64,000 nucleotides of DNA. Origin: Escherichia phage KarlGJung. The notes under the pieces were generated by a model. It saw only the letters and a program-made list of their open reading frames with translations. It was not told the origin of the DNA and searched no databases. This document shows, piece after piece, positions 17,395 to 63,987 of the stretch. Numbering within the stretch: the first letter of the stretch is position 1; every line of letters starts with the position of its first letter. The DNA lies in sequence record MZ501089. One strand, written 5' to 3'. A program made the translations under genes and the position numbers.

Positions 17395-17943
17395 ACCCAA
17401 GAAAACATCTACTGATCGTTGATACCACTGAAGGTCAAGGTATCCATTACGCACATTAAACTGATAGAACATATGACAAGGCGGTAATGCCATATATTTA
17501 AGTTCAGCTGGATTCCATGCTGAAACAATTTGACGCCTATCATTTGGCAGTTTTTTAATACGATCAATAGTTTCAACTAATTGATCCACACCGCCGAAAT
17601 CACGCCATTGTTTACCGTATATAGGACCAAGTTCACCACTATGATATCCTAGGTCTTTAGCCTGGTTTTCATAGTTATCGTCCCAAATAGTTTTACCTTG
17701 AATAAGACTACCATGTGTGCGAAGACGTAAATCATTAACATTGGTAGAACCGGAAATAAACCATAGAAGCTCAGCAATGCATGCATTCCACGCAAGCTTC
17801 TTAGTTGTTACCGCAGGAAAACCTTTAGTTAAATCCCAACGTAATTTAGTACCGAACAAAGCAATTGTTCCTGTGCCTGTTCGGTCATCGGTTTCATAGC
17901 CATTTTCAAAAATGTCTTTAATTAAATCTTGGTATTGTTTCAT
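17395..17943 (-). CDS. td: thymidylate synthase, exon 1
   Basis: 183 codons, MKQYQDLIKDIFENGYETDDRTGTGT... through catalytic ...LPPCHMFYQF... to ...VDVFLG, followed by intron-borne TAA. Confidence 0.92.
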
Positions 17944-58295: not shown

Positions 58296-58814
58296 TTAAT
58301 AACCTCGGTCTTGACGAACGAAATTTTCAGCATTTTTCAGATAATAAAGTTTAAAGATTTCTTCTGCTGTAAGACCAAGACCTTGAAACATGTTCAGAAC
58401 AAAATGGAGAATATCAATCATTTCGAATTTGATTTCTAACTGGTCCTGTGGAGACAAATCAGTAATCAGAGTTTCACGACGTTCACCATGCTGAGCTTTC
58501 CACGGCTTCCATACAGCAGATGCATCTTTTTCGCCATTGCTCATACCACCAAGAGAAGTCAGAAGTTCGCGGAATTCATCATCAATATAATCTTTCTGAT
58601 TACGCAGCCAATCAACAACTTCACCTGCAGTAGCCAAATCATCAGGATGACGGTTATATTCAGGTTTATCTTTAGCTAAACGAATCTGCAGAGATTTCTG
58701 CATGTCAAGCATTACCTGCAGCGGGTCTTTTTCATCACCGAGAATATCCCAATATTCATTTTGAGCTTTATCAGCGCCTTCGATCAGTTGACTACATTCG
58801 TTAAAGTAAGCCAT
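58296..58814 (-). CDS. 56: gp56 dCTPase/dUTPase (MazG-like)
   Basis: About 172 aa from the ATG (MAYFNECSQLIEGADKAQNEYWD...); track start is TTG, 5 codons upstream. Confidence 0.85.
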   Translation of the reverse strand: MAYFNECSQLIEGADKAQNEYWDILGDEKDPLQVMLDMQKSLQIRLAKDKPEYNRHPDDLATAGEVVDWLRNQKDYIDDEFRELLTSLGGMSNGEKDASAVWKPWKAQHGERRETLITDLSPQDQLEIKFEMIDILHFVLNMFQGLGLTAEEIFKLYYLKNAENFVRQDRGY

Positions 58815-58874
58815 TATTTTTCCTTTCAATTCATTAATAAGTTAAATAATTATATCATTTGAGTATGTAAGCAA

Positions 58875-59667: not shown

Positions 59668-59862
59668 TTATTGCAGCAAAAAAAATGAATTATACAATTC
59701 ATCATCATATGTATTTGATAGTAATACTAACACGTTTTGCGATTTAGCATATTCATTAAACCTCGCCTGAATAGTTGGATTATCAGTAAATGATTCTCTT
59801 TTTGTCCATTTATTACGTGGATAATATCCGCATGGTAAAAAATCTAATATCATCCTCAGCAA
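59668..59862 (-). CDS. hypothetical protein (64 aa, uncertain start)
   Basis: ORF track; first codon is TTG, and the internal ATG has almost no spacing to its GAGG; may be leaderless or not real. Confidence 0.3.
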   Translation of the reverse strand: MLRMILDFLPCGYYPRNKWTKRESFTDNPTIQARFNEYAKSQNVLVLLSNTYDDELYNSFFLLQ

Positions 59863-59867
59863 TTTAT

Positions 59868-59901
59868 TTTATAATACCATAACAAGCTGAAAAAGTAAAC
59901 A
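59868..59901 (-). promoter_or_regulatory. early promoter
   Basis: Minus-sense GTTTAC, 18 nt, TATTAT. Confidence 0.5.
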
Positions 59902-59944
59902 AATTTATGAAATTTGTGATAAATATTAATTTAAAGGAGGACAT

Positions 59945-60145
59945 ATGGTACAAAAATTAATGGCACTTGTTAATGCCATAAAAGGTAATAAAAAACGTAT
60001 AGCTTTTACTATTTCTGCTATGGTAGGAATTTTACTCTGGAATTTTGTTTTATCGCCAATTGCTATTGCTCACGGCGTTAATATTCCAGTAATTACTCTT
60101 GATACATTCGTAGATTTAGCATTTGCTTTGGTTGGGTTAATTTAA
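59945..60145 (+). CDS. small membrane protein (66 aa), opposite strand to its neighbours
   Basis: ORF track; ATG start with strong AAGGAGG Shine-Dalgarno; two predicted hydrophobic helices; 3' end overlaps the gene 61 stop. Confidence 0.5.
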   Translation: MVQKLMALVNAIKGNKKRIAFTISAMVGILLWNFVLSPIAIAHGVNIPVITLDTFVDLAFALVGLI

Positions 60146-61170
60146 ATCTTGGCATATTTAGATAGCCTCATTTTAGCCATCAACCCTTGGGCAATATTAT
60201 TTTTCATATATTCCATAATTTGTTCAGGGGTTGCACCTTCCTTTCTAATCATATCATTAACATCTTTTGATTTCCAGGGAGATTTATCCCAAAACATAAC
60301 CCTTTCTCCTGCATCAACTAATTTAGTCATTCGCTTAATTGTATCAGGGTGACGAGGTTCATTATCTAAGACCCACACTCGTCTATCTTTAAATGGAACA
60401 ATTTCTAGGTCTAATTGACCACCCGTAATAGCTATACCATTTTCAATAAAAAGTGAATCTATAGGTCCTTCTAGAACATATACATCGCCATCTTTAACTC
60501 GTTCGACTCCATAGATTTTTGTTGCCTCAGGATAAGCTTTGATGGTGATATATTTTTGAGGAGCATCTTTCTTTAATGCACGTCCTTGAAAAGACTCAGC
60601 TTTTCCATTAGCATTATAAATTGGAATAACAAGACGAGGCTCAGAAATTTCCTTTTTGTATGTTCCCGGTGCTATGCTATTAACTAATTTAGGCCATTCG
60701 GTTGTAAACCAAAGATATTTCCATTTATCCTTTGGAATACAACGAGCTTTTACATATTTTATAATTGGATGGTCTTCCGCCAGTTTATCTAATCTAACGC
60801 ATGACGGAAGAGATTTAATTATTTTCTTCTCAGGTTGTTTAGGAAGTTCTTTAGGTTTTTCTACTGGACGACTTTTACCTTTTTCTTTTCTTATTTCAAA
60901 GATATACTCACGATATAAATCAGGTTCAAACTCCTTTAAATATATTCCGATTGGTGCATGATAGTTACAGTTATAACAATGAATATTTCCTTCATTATTA
61001 TCGCCATAATACCATCCACGAGCTTTATTCTGGTCGGTTTTTGAATCTCCACAAACAGGGCATCTAAACCGTAATTTAAAAGTTGAACTATTATTTACTT
61101 GTGTGAATTTAGGTAAATGAGCTAATGCACGGTATGCAAACTCATTATCAATCCAAGGTATTGATGACAT
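60142..61170 (-). CDS. 61: gp61 DNA primase
   Basis: 342 aa; N-terminal zinc ribbon (CPVCGDSKTD ... CYNC) and TOPRIM-type core. Confidence 0.92.
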   Translation of the reverse strand: MSSIPWIDNEFAYRALAHLPKFTQVNNSSTFKLRFRCPVCGDSKTDQNKARGWYYGDNNEGNIHCYNCNYHAPIGIYLKEFEPDLYREYIFEIRKEKGKSRPVEKPKELPKQPEKKIIKSLPSCVRLDKLAEDHPIIKYVKARCIPKDKWKYLWFTTEWPKLVNSIAPGTYKKEISEPRLVIPIYNANGKAESFQGRALKKDAPQKYITIKAYPEATKIYGVERVKDGDVYVLEGPIDSLFIENGIAITGGQLDLEIVPFKDRRVWVLDNEPRHPDTIKRMTKLVDAGERVMFWDKSPWKSKDVNDMIRKEGATPEQIMEYMKNNIAQGLMAKMRLSKYAKI

Positions 61171-61172
61171 TT

Positions 61173-61337
61173 TTACTCTTCTTTTTCTTTAGATTCCTCT
61201 TTTTTCTTTTTAGGAATCTGTTCAGGACCTTTATTTACTACAGCGCCTGATGTTGTTCCAGTAGAGATATTTTCAGGATTACCACCTGAATCTCCAGCGA
61301 CCATATCTTCTTTGATAAATTCTTTATATGTTTTCAT
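61173..61337 (-). CDS. small hypothetical protein (about 54 aa)
   Basis: Hand-translated MKTYKEFIKEDMVAGDSGGNPENISTGTTSGAVVNKGPEQIPKKKKEESKEKEE; directly upstream of gene 61; not in the ORF track. Confidence 0.35.
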   Translation of the reverse strand: MKTYKEFIKEDMVAGDSGGNPENISTGTTSGAVVNKGPEQIPKKKKEESKEKEE

Positions 61338-61338
61338 A

Positions 61339-61695
61339 TTAACCTCTATTCATAAAAGCATTAAAAATTTGGTCATCAATAGATGGTGCAGTAATATTTT
61401 CTGCATCATTTAGCAAATCATTAATTTCATCAGATAGCATAACACATGTACCTTTATTTCCTGTAATTGTTACTGCGCAATTACGAACGTTTTCTTTATT
61501 AAATTTTAGGTTAATATTTTCGTAATGAAAATCCTTTAATGCCGAATATATCTTTAAAATGAAATTGTCTTTTACTACAATAAACCCAACCTCACTATTA
61601 AAACGTGGTTCATGGAAACTGTAATAAACCTTTTCATCTATAAAATCGTATGAAATTTTTTCCATTTTTAAATATGAAAATTCAGAACTATACAT
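61339..61695 (-). CDS. hypothetical protein (118 aa)
   Basis: ORF track; ATG start. Confidence 0.45.
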   Translation of the reverse strand: MYSSEFSYLKMEKISYDFIDEKVYYSFHEPRFNSEVGFIVVKDNFILKIYSALKDFHYENINLKFNKENVRNCAVTITGNKGTCVMLSDEINDLLNDAENITAPSIDDQIFNAFMNRG

Positions 61696-61707: not shown

Positions 61708-62001
61708 TTACTCACCTACCACTTCAGCGATGATATTTTTGTTATTAAAGTTTTTATCGCAATACAGAACATAATTATACTGCATTACACCACCAGACTT
61801 AAGCTGTTTTTGCACTTCGGCTTTCATTTCAGGACGATCGCGCTCAACGATATTCATAATATCTGCTTCAATTTGAGTTTCAACCTCAGTCTGATCCGCA
61901 GTCATAGACCATTCGCACAAATCTTTATCATAGCCTGCCATAGCAGGCTGAGCAGCACAAGAAGATAAAGCAAAAATTGTAGCAAAGATAAATTTTTTCA
62001 T
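61708..62001 (-). CDS. sp: secreted periplasmic protein, Spackle-like
   Basis: 97 aa with a signal peptide (MKKFIFATIFALSSCAAQPAMA); third ORF downstream of gene 41, where T4 sp (61.3) lies. Confidence 0.55.
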   Translation of the reverse strand: MKKFIFATIFALSSCAAQPAMAGYDKDLCEWSMTADQTEVETQIEADIMNIVERDRPEMKAEVQKQLKSGGVMQYNYVLYCDKNFNNKNIIAEVVGE

Positions 62002-62023
62002 GATAATCTCCTCAGTAGTTTAT

Positions 62024-62058
62024 GTTTATAGTATCTCAATTTCCAACAAAAGTAAACA
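62024..62058 (-). promoter_or_regulatory. early promoter upstream of the sp-like gene
   Basis: Minus-sense GTTTAC, 18 nt, TACTAT. Confidence 0.5.
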
Positions 62059-62059
62059 G

Positions 62060-62317
62060 TTATTTTAAAACTTCTGCATAATCACATGTTACAAACTGTT
62101 TCTCTAGCTTAACGATCTTACGAAAATACCTTTTACACTGACGAATCTGCCGCTTCGTAGGACGTACAGCAAACTTAATAAATTCCACTCGACCAGATGG
62201 AGGACTTTCTTCTGGTGGAATATCTAATACCAATTCCCACGTATCTGCAATAAGTGCTTTGAATTGTGTATTTTTCCTGACGTTATACGGAGTAGGTTTA
62301 AATAAAACAATATGCAT
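62060..62317 (-). CDS. hypothetical protein (85 aa)
   Basis: ORF track; ATG start. Confidence 0.45.
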   Translation of the reverse strand: MHIVLFKPTPYNVRKNTQFKALIADTWELVLDIPPEESPPSGRVEFIKFAVRPTKRQIRQCKRYFRKIVKLEKQFVTCDYAEVLK

Positions 62318-62318
62318 A

Positions 62319-62501
62319 TTATCCTCGGCAATCTACTTCACACACTTTCTTGTCATCAATGAAAGCTTTAACTAATGCTTTATTAACTTCAGCATACTGA
62401 GTAGTAGCCCATTGAACGTCATCTTTCATCATTGTGGTTTCTTTAGTAAACATGCTTTCATTCTTAAACCACCCCATAAAAACTACCTTTAGCAATTCCA
62501 T
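62319..62501 (-). CDS. dmd: Dmd-like antitoxin (60 aa)
   Basis: 60-aa ORF immediately downstream of gene 41, the position and size of T4 dmd (61.5); early promoter upstream. Confidence 0.5.
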   Translation of the reverse strand: MELLKVVFMGWFKNESMFTKETTMMKDDVQWATTQYAEVNKALVKAFIDDKKVCEVDCRG

Positions 62502-62529
62502 AACAATCTCCTCATTTAACCAACAAGAC

Positions 62530-62561
62530 TACTATACCATAGTCTTGTCAGCTTGTAAACT
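62530..62561 (-). promoter_or_regulatory. early promoter upstream of the dmd-like gene
   Basis: Minus-sense GTTTAC, 18 nt, TATAGT; -35 overlaps the gene 41 stop. Confidence 0.45.
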
Positions 62562-63987
62562 AAAATTTTAATTCATTTGCCAAAGCATCTAACTGAGCTC
62601 GAGTCGATTCGTTTCTTTGATAGCGATTCTGCTCAGCTTGTATCTGTTGTGAACCTGCTACCTCACTCACTTCAGTTGGAGTAGAATCTTGTTCAATTTC
62701 TACCCATTTCTGATTTCCTTTTTGAACACCCATCAAAAACTTATTCCATTTGTTCTTATCGCCATATCGTGATTTGATTTGCTTAATGAGTTGTTGTTCA
62801 GCAGCTGCTAGCTCCTCGGTTTCAATGACCGCAAGCATAAAATCAGCTGTTGCTGGAAGACCGGCAGATTCTGCAATATCGCTCATGTTAACATCAGAAG
62901 AATCCCAAGCTTGTTTACCAACCTGTGCTGCAGTCCAAAGAACAGTTTCGGTTTCAACAGCAAGAGCACGTAATTCCTCTGCAATGGCTTTAACAGTTGT
63001 GTAACTATTTTCTGAGTAAACTCTAATGCGGCAAGATTTACAAATACCCAGATAGTCGACAATAATGATTGTTGGAACAAAATTCTTCTTGAGCTTTAAT
63101 TCGTTTAAAAGCGATCGAAATGTATTAGCATCTGCTCCACCAGTAGGATACTGTTTAACTATTAAACGACCGAGAGTAGATTTCTCGCGCCATTTTTCCA
63201 TTTTTCCTTTATACTCAGCGTAAGAAATATGCCCGTCATCAATGTCATCAAGAGAAACATCAAGCATATTAGCATCAATACGCTTAGCACAGACTTCTTC
63301 TGCCATTTCCATGGAAATGTAAAGAACATTATGTCCGAGCTGCAAATAATCTGCTGCCAATGAACACAGACCTAATGACTTACCGACGTTAACACCAGCC
63401 ATTAAAACGTTCAGTGTTCCAGTTTCAGCTCCACCTTTAGTAATTTTATTTAGAATTTTGAGTCTAAATGGAACCTTACGAGCTTTATTCATATAAGATA
63501 GCCAACGTGCTTCGTAGTCATCCATCCAATCATGACCAACGTAACTATCAAATGAAATTGATAATGCTTGGCGCATGATGTCAGGAATAGCACCTACATC
63601 TGGCATTTTCTTATTTCGTTTTTCCGGAGGAAGCTCAGCATTAGTTTGAATTTCAATTATTTTAGACGTAGCATTAAACATCGCCCTTTGCTGAACATAT
63701 TTTTCTGTTTCTTTTACTAACCAGCTATGGTCTTCTGGAGAATCGGCTAGTTTCGAAATAAGTGTTTTTACACCAGAATATTCTGTTTCAGTAAATGAAC
63801 TATTTTCTAATGCAACATTTAACGCATTAATAGATGGAACGCTATGGTACTCATTAACATGAGATTTAATTAATTTGAACGTATTTTTAGCTGGACCACT
63901 TTCAAAATATTCTGAATCCATATATGGCCAAACTTTTGAAAAATAAGCTTGATCAAATATGAGATGAGAAAGAATAATTTCTACCAC
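62560..63987 (-). CDS. 41: gp41 replicative DNA helicase (DnaB-like)
   Basis: 475 aa, MVEIILSHLIFDQAYFSKVWPYMD...; Walker A MAGVNVGKSLGL; start codon appears to be GTG preceded by AAGGAG. Confidence 0.93.
   Translation of the reverse strand: MVEIILSHLIFDQAYFSKVWPYMDSEYFESGPAKNTFKLIKSHVNEYHSVPSINALNVALENSSFTETEYSGVKTLISKLADSPEDHSWLVKETEKYVQQRAMFNATSKIIEIQTNAELPPEKRNKKMPDVGAIPDIMRQALSISFDSYVGHDWMDDYEARWLSYMNKARKVPFRLKILNKITKGGAETGTLNVLMAGVNVGKSLGLCSLAADYLQLGHNVLYISMEMAEEVCAKRIDANMLDVSLDDIDDGHISYAEYKGKMEKWREKSTLGRLIVKQYPTGGADANTFRSLLNELKLKKNFVPTIIIVDYLGICKSCRIRVYSENSYTTVKAIAEELRALAVETETVLWTAAQVGKQAWDSSDVNMSDIAESAGLPATADFMLAVIETEELAAAEQQLIKQIKSRYGDKNKWNKFLMGVQKGNQKWVEIEQDSTPTEVSEVAGSQQIQAEQNRYQRNESTRAQLDALANELKF

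What the first reader, a model, noticed from the sequence alone, without database searches (positions are those of the whole stretch)
61708..62501. Dmd-like and Spackle-like small proteins downstream of gene 41
A 60-aa ORF directly after gene 41 and a 97-aa signal-peptide protein two genes further match T4 dmd and sp in size and order. dmd is an antitoxin against host RnlA/LsoA RNases and sp is a periplasmic superinfection-exclusion factor. The identifications rest on position and length, not on motifs.
Basis: partly seen in the sequence, partly recalled or inferred. Interest (0 to 1): 0.4.

Follow-up and report, generated by a model that had tools for sequence, protein, structure and literature searches.

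The report
T4 dmd, tifA and spackle genes

Summary
The window end is collinear with T4 genes 56-dam-61-61.1-61.2-sp-61.4-dmd-41, all on the minus strand. The 60-aa ORF (62319-62501) is 58/60 identical to crystallised T4 Dmd (PDB 5hy3_B, E 2e-36) and matches Pfam Dmd over its full length at 152 bits. The 97-aa ORF (61708-62001) is 95/97 identical to T4 Spackle (PDB 6x6o, E 2e-61; Pfam T4_Spackle 152 bits). It keeps the 22-residue signal peptide with the AMA|G cleavage site, Cys29 and Cys81, and every published gp5-lysozyme contact residue. Both exact protein sequences are already in public phage records under these names. The Dmd and 61.4 sequences equal those of Escherichia phage KarlGJung. 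The four substitutions fall at naturally variable or non-interface positions. It is T4 61.4 = tifA, a published inhibitor of the ToxN toxin, co-transcribed with dmd from an early promoter that is unchanged from T4. The stretch is therefore the known "anti-toxin-antitoxin island" of T-even phages plus spackle. One small oddity lies next door: the 61.2 (adfA) slot holds a 118-aa T2/RB32-type protein that resembles only the C-terminal half of AdfA.

The parts
62560..63987 (-). Gene 41 replicative helicase. It is the upstream landmark and not part of the finding itself.
   Evidence: 472/475 aa identical to T4 gp41. Matches Pfam DnaB_C and phrog_19.
62531..62559 (-). Early-promoter-like site (TTTACA, 17-nt spacer, TG-TATAGT) upstream of the dmd-tifA operon.
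   Evidence: Best consensus hit in the region, 10/12 with an extended TG. The 41-dmd spacer differs from T4 by a single base, which lies downstream of this site. T4 dmd-61.4 is reported to be driven by an early promoter upstream of dmd (PMC9391042).
62518..62553 (-). Conserved hairpin overlapping the dmd promoter in the 41-dmd spacer. It would form on read-through RNA from gene 41. Its role is unknown, and it has no T-run, so it is not an intrinsic terminator.
   Evidence: 15-bp stem, -18.9 kcal/mol, z = -3.8 against shuffles. No terminator-like site was found. One base in the 3' arm differs from T4 (T4 C, window and Bas43 T).
62319..62501 (-). dmd (T4 61.5): a 60-aa antitoxin mimic that inhibits the HEPN RNase toxins RnlA and LsoA.
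   Evidence: 58/60 identical to PDB 5hy3_B 'Antitoxin Dmd', E 2.3e-36. PF17587 151.8 bits over 1-60 of 60. phrog_2102. The exact sequence equals QXV82131.1 'anti-immunity antitoxin' of phage KarlGJung. Differences from T4 are V4L and I22T.
62060..62317 (-). tifA (T4 61.4): an 85-aa inhibitor of the ToxN endoribonuclease toxin of toxIN. Its Shine-Dalgarno/start (GAGGATAATATG) overlaps the dmd stop codon.
   Evidence: 82/85 identical to T4 gp61.4. PF23945 DUF7279 71.5 bits and phrog_2375. T4 61.4 was renamed tifA and shown to inhibit ToxN (PMC9391042). 15 synonymous against 3 non-synonymous codon differences.
62028..62057 (-). Promoter-like site (GTTTAC, then TACTAT) in the tifA-sp spacer. It is the probable sp promoter (inferred).
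   Evidence: Read directly from the sequence. At 8/12 it is below the scan threshold. It is conserved in T4 and Bas43, except that a 2-bp TA deletion lies just downstream of it in the window. PMC9391042 mentions a promoter downstream of tifA.
61936..62001 (-). Signal-peptide-coding part of sp (residues 1-22, MKKFIFATIFALSSCAAQPAMA).
   Evidence: The n/h/c regions and the AMA|G site were found. In T4 Sp, cleavage after residue 22 was shown by N-terminal sequencing (PMC7650644). The single change, A13S, is in the h-region.
61708..61935 (-). Mature Spackle (residues 23-97, plus the stop codon): a periplasmic inhibitor of the gp5 tail lysozyme.
   Evidence: 74/75 identical to PDB 7cn6_A, and the full protein matches 6x6o_A at E 2.2e-61. 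PF25676 152 bits. Cys29 and Cys81 are retained, as are contact residues S32, M33, T34, A35, Q37, N76, E93, V94, G96 and E97 (sequence checked). K53E lies at the end of helix 2, outside the contact helices.
61339..61695 (-). Neighbouring 118-aa ORF in the 61.2 (adfA) slot. It is a T2/RB32-type variant and is listed for context only.
   Evidence: phrog_4122 full length. PF23813 AdfA 32.2 bits, covering only profile positions 113-211 of 211. 34% identity to the C-terminal half of T4 61.2. The exact sequence is present in RB32, RB33 and RB14.

Best explanation
This is the standard early-gene cluster that lies between the helicase (41) and primase (61) genes of a Tequatrovirus (T4-like phage). An early promoter just after gene 41 drives a two-gene operon. 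The first gene, dmd, encodes a 60-residue protein. When phage-induced shut-off lets the labile host antitoxins RnlB and LsoB disappear, Dmd binds the host HEPN ribonuclease toxins RnlA and LsoA and keeps them from destroying phage mRNA. It binds in the groove between the N-repeated/TBP2 domain and the HEPN domain. The second gene, tifA, encodes an 85-residue basic protein that associates with and inhibits the ToxN toxin of the toxIN system. A second promoter then drives sp. Its 97-residue product is exported by a Sec-type signal peptide that is cut after Ala22. The acidic 75-residue mature protein binds the lysozyme domain of the tail-spike protein gp5 one-to-one and locks it in an open, inactive state. 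This blocks cell-wall digestion by gp5 from superinfecting T-even phages, or from stray gp5 of the resident phage. Shown here: sequence identity, family membership, gene order, ribosome-binding and promoter signals, and retention of the published functional residues. Inferred from T4 work: the biochemical activities themselves.
For: Dmd is 58/60 identical to the crystallised T4 Dmd (5hy3_B, E 2e-36). Sp is 95/97 identical to crystallised T4 Spackle (6x6o, 7cn6). Both give full-length Pfam and PHROG family matches well above the curated cutoffs. The gene order 41-dmd-61.4-sp-61.2-61.1-61 is the same as in the annotated T4 and Bas43 records. More than 500 Tequatrovirus records match this DNA at 90-99% identity and carry these annotations. 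The exact protein sequences are already public under these names. Dmd T22 is the majority Tequatrovirus form and T4's I22 is the minority; position 4 also varies in the second crystallised Dmd, 5i8j. Sp E53 also occurs in Bas43, and the exact Sp sequence was seen on 52 contigs. The promoter and leader of dmd differ from T4 by one base. Codon differences are mostly synonymous. The mechanisms are taken from PMC8266594 (Dmd with RnlA/LsoA), PMC7677548 and PMC7650644 (Spackle with gp5), and PMC9391042 (TifA with ToxN).
Against: No activity was measured for this allele. Dmd V4L was found in one public contig only, and I could not read the LsoA-Dmd structure paper, so I could not check whether residue 4 contacts the toxin. 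Gene 5 is not in the part of the window I examined, so co-variation between Sp and its target could not be checked. The sp promoter is only an 8/12 consensus match.
Confidence: 0.95

Rival explanations
1. The genes and the molecular target are the same, but the biological role of Spackle differs. Its main job would not be to exclude superinfecting phages. It would be to neutralise the resident phage's own unassembled gp5 that leaks into the periplasm, preventing premature lysis.
For: Kanamaru et al. saw no change in T4 titre when gp61.3 was over-expressed. They also showed that gp5 can reach the periplasm from inside, and they proposed this as the main function (PMC7650644).
Against: Shi et al. 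and earlier genetics link sp to superinfection exclusion and to resistance to lysis from without (PMC7677548). The two roles share one mechanism and do not exclude each other. Nothing in this window separates them.
Confidence: 0.3
2. The genes are orthologues by sequence but have been retuned or weakened. The private Dmd V4L change and the Sp K53E charge reversal would shift partner specificity, for example towards a different RnlA/LsoA homologue or a variant gp5.
For: V4L was seen in one public contig only. K53E reverses a charge on a protein whose binding is largely electrostatic. TifA and AdfA homologues are reported to be 'tuned' to particular toxins.
Against: V to L is conservative, and position 4 is Thr in the other crystallised Dmd. 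K53 sits at the end of helix 2, while the contacts come from helices 1, 4 and 5 and the C-terminus. The E53 allele is common, on 52 contigs. All named contact residues are unchanged.
Confidence: 0.05
3. The ORFs are chance open frames in AT-rich DNA, or decayed gene remnants.
For: Short ORFs are frequent in AT-rich phage DNA, and many overlapping 30-60-aa ORFs are listed.
Against: E-values of 1e-36 to 1e-61 against solved proteins, full-length profile matches, intact start and stop codons, strong Shine-Dalgarno sites, and an excess of synonymous changes.
Confidence: 0.01

Closest known systems
Bacteriophage T4 Dmd (gp61.5), antitoxin against RnlA and LsoA; PDB 5HY3 chain B
   Same: 60 aa with 58/60 identity. 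It sits in the same position just after gene 41, has the same promoter and leader, and is co-operonic with 61.4/tifA.
   Different: V4L (rare) and I22T (the common Tequatrovirus form). No functional difference is expected.
Bacteriophage T4 Spackle (gp61.3); PDB 6X6O, 6XC0, 6XC1, 7CN6, 7CN7
   Same: 97 aa with 95/97 identity. It has the same 22-residue signal peptide architecture and cleavage site, the same Cys29 and Cys81, and the same gp5-contact residues. It holds the same position between 61.4 and 61.2.
   Different: A13S in the signal peptide and K53E in helix 2, which changes the mature net charge from -5 to -7. There is a 2-bp deletion in the 5' leader. The sp stop is followed by a different downstream gene.
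Bacteriophage T4 TifA (gp61.4), ToxN inhibitory factor A (Srikant, Guegler and Laub, eLife 2022)
   Same: 85 aa with 82/85 identity. It keeps the basic central region and the T4-type C-terminal extension, and it follows dmd directly.
   Different: A35P, F41S and I83V. The effect on ToxN inhibition is untested.
T-even 'anti-TA island' (dmd, tifA, adfA) as proposed in PMC9391042
   Same: Same locus and same order of dmd and tifA.
   Different: The adfA (61.2) slot holds a 118-aa protein of the RB32/RB33/RB14 type instead of the 208-aa AdfA.

Membership tests
Dmd (Pfam PF17587; T4 gp61.5) | Full-length sequence match to the family profile and to crystallised T4 Dmd | tested here: met
   PF17587 151.8 bits (cutoff 27) over 1-60 of 60. 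5hy3_B E 2.3e-36 with 58/60 identical.
Dmd (Pfam PF17587; T4 gp61.5) | Genomic position immediately downstream of gene 41, at the head of the dmd-61.4 early operon | tested here: met
   Gene order is the same as in NC_000866 and MZ501106. The promoter-like site and leader are conserved.
Dmd (Pfam PF17587; T4 gp61.5) | Direct binding and inhibition of the RnlA and LsoA toxins | not testable with these tools
   Needs co-expression or binding assays. Inferred from 97% identity to the protein for which this was shown (PMC8266594).
T4 Spackle (Pfam PF25676; gp61.3) | Full-length sequence match to the family profile and to crystallised Spackle | tested here: met
   PF25676 152 bits (cutoff 27) over 1-96 of 96. 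6x6o_A E 2.2e-61 with 95/97 identical.
T4 Spackle (Pfam PF25676; gp61.3) | Cleavable N-terminal secretory signal of 22 residues | tested here: met
   MKK n-region, hydrophobic core and AMA|G after residue 22. This is the same site as the one proven by N-terminal sequencing in T4 (PMC7650644). No dedicated predictor was available, so the check is rule-based.
T4 Spackle (Pfam PF25676; gp61.3) | Cys29-Cys81 pair and the gp5-lysozyme contact residues (S32-A35, Q37, N76, E93, V94, G96, E97) | tested here: met
   All are present in the translated ORF, checked against the residues named.
T4 Spackle (Pfam PF25676; gp61.3) | 1:1 binding and inhibition of the gp5 lysozyme domain | not testable with these tools
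   Needs a biochemical assay. Inferred from near-identity.
TifA / DUF7279 (Pfam PF23945; T4 gp61.4) | Sequence match, and position directly after dmd | tested here: met
   PF23945 71.5 bits (cutoff 24.5). 82/85 identical to T4 gp61.4. Its Shine-Dalgarno site and ATG span the dmd stop codon.
TifA / DUF7279 (Pfam PF23945; T4 gp61.4) | Inhibition of ToxN | not testable with these tools
   Shown for the T4, T2, T6 and RB69 homologues in PMC9391042, not for this allele.
AdfA (Pfam PF23813; T4 gp61.2), considered for the neighbouring 118-aa ORF | Full-length (about 208 aa) match, including the N-terminal half | tested here: not met
   Only profile positions 113-211 of 211 match, at 32.2 bits. There is no room for an N-terminal half, because the ORF starts 12 nt after the sp stop. 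Identity to the T4 AdfA C-terminal half is 34%. PMC11257639 counts adfA homologues in only 13 of 17 Tevenvirinae phages and says T2 lacks one; whether T2 carries this 118-aa type was not checked.

The most novel reading that the evidence does not exclude
The anti-toxin-antitoxin island of this phage may carry alleles with altered specificities. The candidates are the rare Dmd V4L, TifA A35P/F41S, and especially the 118-aa protein that replaces AdfA in the 61.2 slot. That protein could be a distinct, uncharacterised inhibitor of some other host toxin (a different DarT homologue or an unrelated toxin) that shares only a C-terminal module with AdfA.
Probability: 0.15. Interest if true: 0.4.

Novelty: already known. 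Interest (0 to 1): 0.07.

Why it matters
It matters little beyond correct annotation. The interval holds three textbook or recently characterised T4 counter-defence and exclusion genes in their usual place. The result confirms that a tool-free reader can recognise T4 gene order. It also adds the missing name, tifA, for the middle gene. The only lead that might repay work is next door: the short 61.2-slot protein in an island where every characterised neighbour is an anti-toxin.

Tried and rejected
(1) I predicted the structure of the middle gene product (61.4/TifA) from an 8-sequence alignment. Mean pLDDT was 56.5 and pTM 0.43, which is too poor for a fold search, so none was run. The literature search then identified the protein.

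(2) Deep homologue searches for 61.4 found few relatives. The word-indexed search returned 7 clusters, all close. The exhaustive phmmer search returned only 8 representatives at E<=1e-3. The family is narrow at single-sequence sensitivity and nothing more was learned.

(3) I tried to read the LsoA-Dmd structure paper (PMID 27169810) to map residues 4 and 22 onto the interface. The paper is not held. I used natural variation instead.

(4) I considered whether Sp might be a lipoprotein, because LSSC (LASC in T4) fits a lipobox with Cys15. I rejected this because N-terminal sequencing of T4 Sp shows cleavage after residue 22.

(5) I looked for an intrinsic terminator between gene 41 and dmd. None was found. 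The hairpin there has no T-run.

(6) A megablast search found no 100% identical genome in the phage collection; the best hit was 98.3%. The source genome therefore appears not to be in that collection. The exact-protein look-up points to phage KarlGJung or a near-identical phage.

Full report
**Observation.** All genes at the 3' end of the window lie on the minus strand. A 475-aa ORF (62560-63987) is followed by a 60-aa ORF (62319-62501), an 85-aa ORF (62060-62317), a 97-aa ORF (61708-62001), a 118-aa ORF (61339-61695), a 54-aa ORF (61173-61337) and a 342-aa ORF (60142-61170). The coordinates in the finding (61708-62501) bracket exactly the 60-, 85- and 97-aa ORFs. The description 'directly after gene 41' and 'two genes further' is accurate.

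**Identity of the surroundings.** I compared the region with the annotated T4 record (NC_000866). The order is the same: 41, dmd, 61.4, sp, 61.2, 61.1, 61, dam, 56. Protein identities to T4 are 472/475 (gp41), 339/342 (gp61), 52/54 (61.1) and 252/259 (Dam). A megablast of 61100-62600 hits 509 phage records at 90-99% identity. Nearly all are Tequatrovirus phages of Escherichia, Shigella, Yersinia and Salmonella, annotated 'discriminator of mRNA degradation' and 'spackle periplasmic protein'. The best hit is 98.3% identical, so the source genome is not in that collection. The exact Dmd and 61.4 protein sequences equal QXV82131.1 and QXV82130.1 of Escherichia phage KarlGJung.

**Dmd.**
- The 60-aa product matches PDB 5hy3 chain B ('Antitoxin Dmd', the LsoA-Dmd complex) at E 2.3e-36 with 58/60 identities. 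It matches a second crystallised Dmd (5i8j) at E 3.7e-17.
- It matches Pfam PF17587 (Dmd) at 151.8 bits over 1-60 of 60 and phrog_2102 at 132 bits.
- The two differences from T4 are V4L and I22T.
- In an alignment of the 90%-identity cluster, T22 is the majority state. It is in the T2-type sequence, which was seen on 290 contigs; T4's I22 is the exception. L4 is private to this sequence.
- Position 4 is Thr in 5i8j, so that position tolerates change.
- The gene has a GAGGAG Shine-Dalgarno 6 nt before its ATG.
- A TTTACA-N17-(TG)TATAGT site lies immediately after gene 41 and is the best promoter-like hit in the region. The 41-dmd spacer differs from T4 at one base.
- Srikant et al. state that T4 dmd and 61.4 form a two-gene locus driven by an early promoter upstream of dmd (PMC9391042).
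- A 15-bp hairpin (-18.9 kcal/mol, z = -3.8) overlaps this promoter. It has no T-run, so it is not an intrinsic terminator.

**Spackle.**
- The 97-aa product matches PDB 6x6o chain A ('Protein spackle') at E 2.2e-61 with 95/97 identities. Residues 23-97 match the mature construct 7cn6 at E 1.4e-46.
- It matches PF25676 (T4_Spackle) at 152 bits over 1-96 of 96 and phrog_1586 at 159 bits.
- The differences from T4 are A13S in the signal-peptide core and K53E.
- The N-terminus has an MKK n-region, a hydrophobic core and an AMA|G site after residue 22. In T4 this cleavage was shown by N-terminal sequencing of the periplasmic protein (PMC7650644).
- Cys29 and Cys81 are retained. So are all contact residues named in the two structure papers: Ser32, Met33, Thr34, Ala35, Gln37, Asn76, Glu93, Val94, Gly96 and Glu97.
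- Residue 53 is at the end of helix 2 (residues 37-55). Binding uses helices 1, 4 and 5 and the C-terminus.
- The E53 allele also occurs in phage Bas43. The exact Sp sequence was seen on 52 public contigs under the name spackle.

**The gene in between.** The 85-aa ORF is 82/85 identical to T4 gp61.4 (A35P, F41S, I83V). It matches DUF7279 (PF23945, 71.5 bits) and phrog_2375. It shows 15 synonymous against 3 non-synonymous codon differences, so it is under purifying selection. Its own searches gave little. Few relatives were found and the AlphaFold model was poor (pLDDT 56.5). A literature search settled the question. [quoted passage not shown] It is sufficient to abolish toxIN defence, it co-immunoprecipitates with ToxN, and it is amplified together with dmd when T4 evolves to escape toxIN (PMC9391042). 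The authors call dmd-tifA-adfA an 'anti-TA island'. In the window, the dmd stop codon lies inside the tifA Shine-Dalgarno/start region (GAGGATAATATG). This fits coupled translation within one operon.

**Mechanism.** What is shown here is orthology, intact coding and expression signals, and retention of the functional residues. The activities below are inferred from T4.
- Dmd binds RnlA and LsoA in the groove between the N-repeated (TBP2) domain and the HEPN domain. It replaces the labile host antitoxins after host shut-off (PMC8266594).
- TifA inhibits ToxN.
- Mature Spackle is acidic, with a net charge of -7 here and -5 in T4. It binds the basic horseshoe-shaped patch around the substrate cleft of the gp5 lysozyme domain one-to-one and inhibits it without touching the catalytic residues.

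The biological role of Spackle has two published readings that share this mechanism. One is exclusion of superinfecting T-even phages (PMC7677548). The other is neutralisation of the phage's own free gp5 (PMC7650644). The window cannot separate them.

**Comparison and novelty.** All sequence-level and position-level membership features were tested and met for Dmd, Spackle and TifA. Only the biochemical activities could not be tested. The exact proteins are already deposited and named. The finding is therefore a correct identification of known genes. It is neither a new member nor a new variant.

**Side observations.**
- The 61.2 slot does not hold the 208-aa AdfA. It holds a 118-aa protein of the RB32/RB33/RB14 type that aligns only with AdfA's C-terminal half.
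- A plus-strand 66-aa hydrophobic ORF (59945-60145) between dam and 61 is 94% conserved in T4, but the T4 record lists no CDS there.
- Gene 56 is only 128/171 identical to T4 while its neighbours are 97-99% identical, which indicates mosaicism.
- The sp leader lacks 2 bp (TA) relative to T4 and Bas43.

**Verdict.** The genes are already known and interest is low.

Noticed in passing
window 62060-62317 (-): The unnamed gene between dmd and sp is T4 61.4 = tifA, a published inhibitor of the ToxN toxin. It is 82/85 identical to T4 (A35P, F41S, I83V). Its Shine-Dalgarno/start region overlaps the dmd stop codon.
   Followed up: yes
window 61339-61695 (-): The 61.2 (adfA, anti-DarT) slot holds a 118-aa protein (phrog_4122; identical in RB32, RB33 and RB14) instead of the 208-aa AdfA. 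Only the C-terminal half aligns (34% identity; PF23813 32 bits). The last 14 residues are identical to T4 AdfA. In a weak alignment, an Asn sits where AdfA has the His linked to DarT1 neutralisation. Its function is unknown, and it lies inside an island of anti-toxin genes.
   Followed up: partly
window 59945-60145 (+): A 66-aa hydrophobic ORF (phrog_2024) lies on the strand opposite to all its neighbours and overlaps the stop of gene 61 by 4 nt. It is 94% conserved in T4 (record positions 17738-17935), yet the T4 RefSeq table lists no CDS there. In phage Bas43 it is annotated as hypothetical.
   Followed up: partly
window 59744-59913: About 170 bp of the dam-61 spacer have no counterpart in T4. 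This is the gap between the two blastn blocks.
   Followed up: no
window 58296-58829 (-): Gene 56 (dCTPase/dUTPase) is only 128/171 identical to T4, while flanking genes are 97-99% identical. This is a mosaic allele. No segF-sized ORF lies next to it (the ORFs downstream are 81, 68, 113... aa).
   Followed up: partly
window 62518-62553 (-): A 15-bp hairpin (-18.9 kcal/mol, z = -3.8) overlaps the dmd early promoter in the 41-dmd spacer. One base of its 3' arm differs from T4. It has no T-run, and its role is unknown (it may be an RNA processing or stability element on gene 41 read-through transcripts).
   Followed up: partly
window about 62025-62030 (-): There is a 2-bp (TA) deletion relative to T4 and Bas43 in a TATATA run of the sp 5' leader, just downstream of the putative -10 element.
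   Followed up: no
window 61957-61968 (-), Sp residues 12-15: A lipobox-like motif, LSSC (LASC in T4), with Cys15 lies inside the Spackle signal peptide. Published N-terminal sequencing shows cleavage after residue 22, so it is probably not used.
   Followed up: yes
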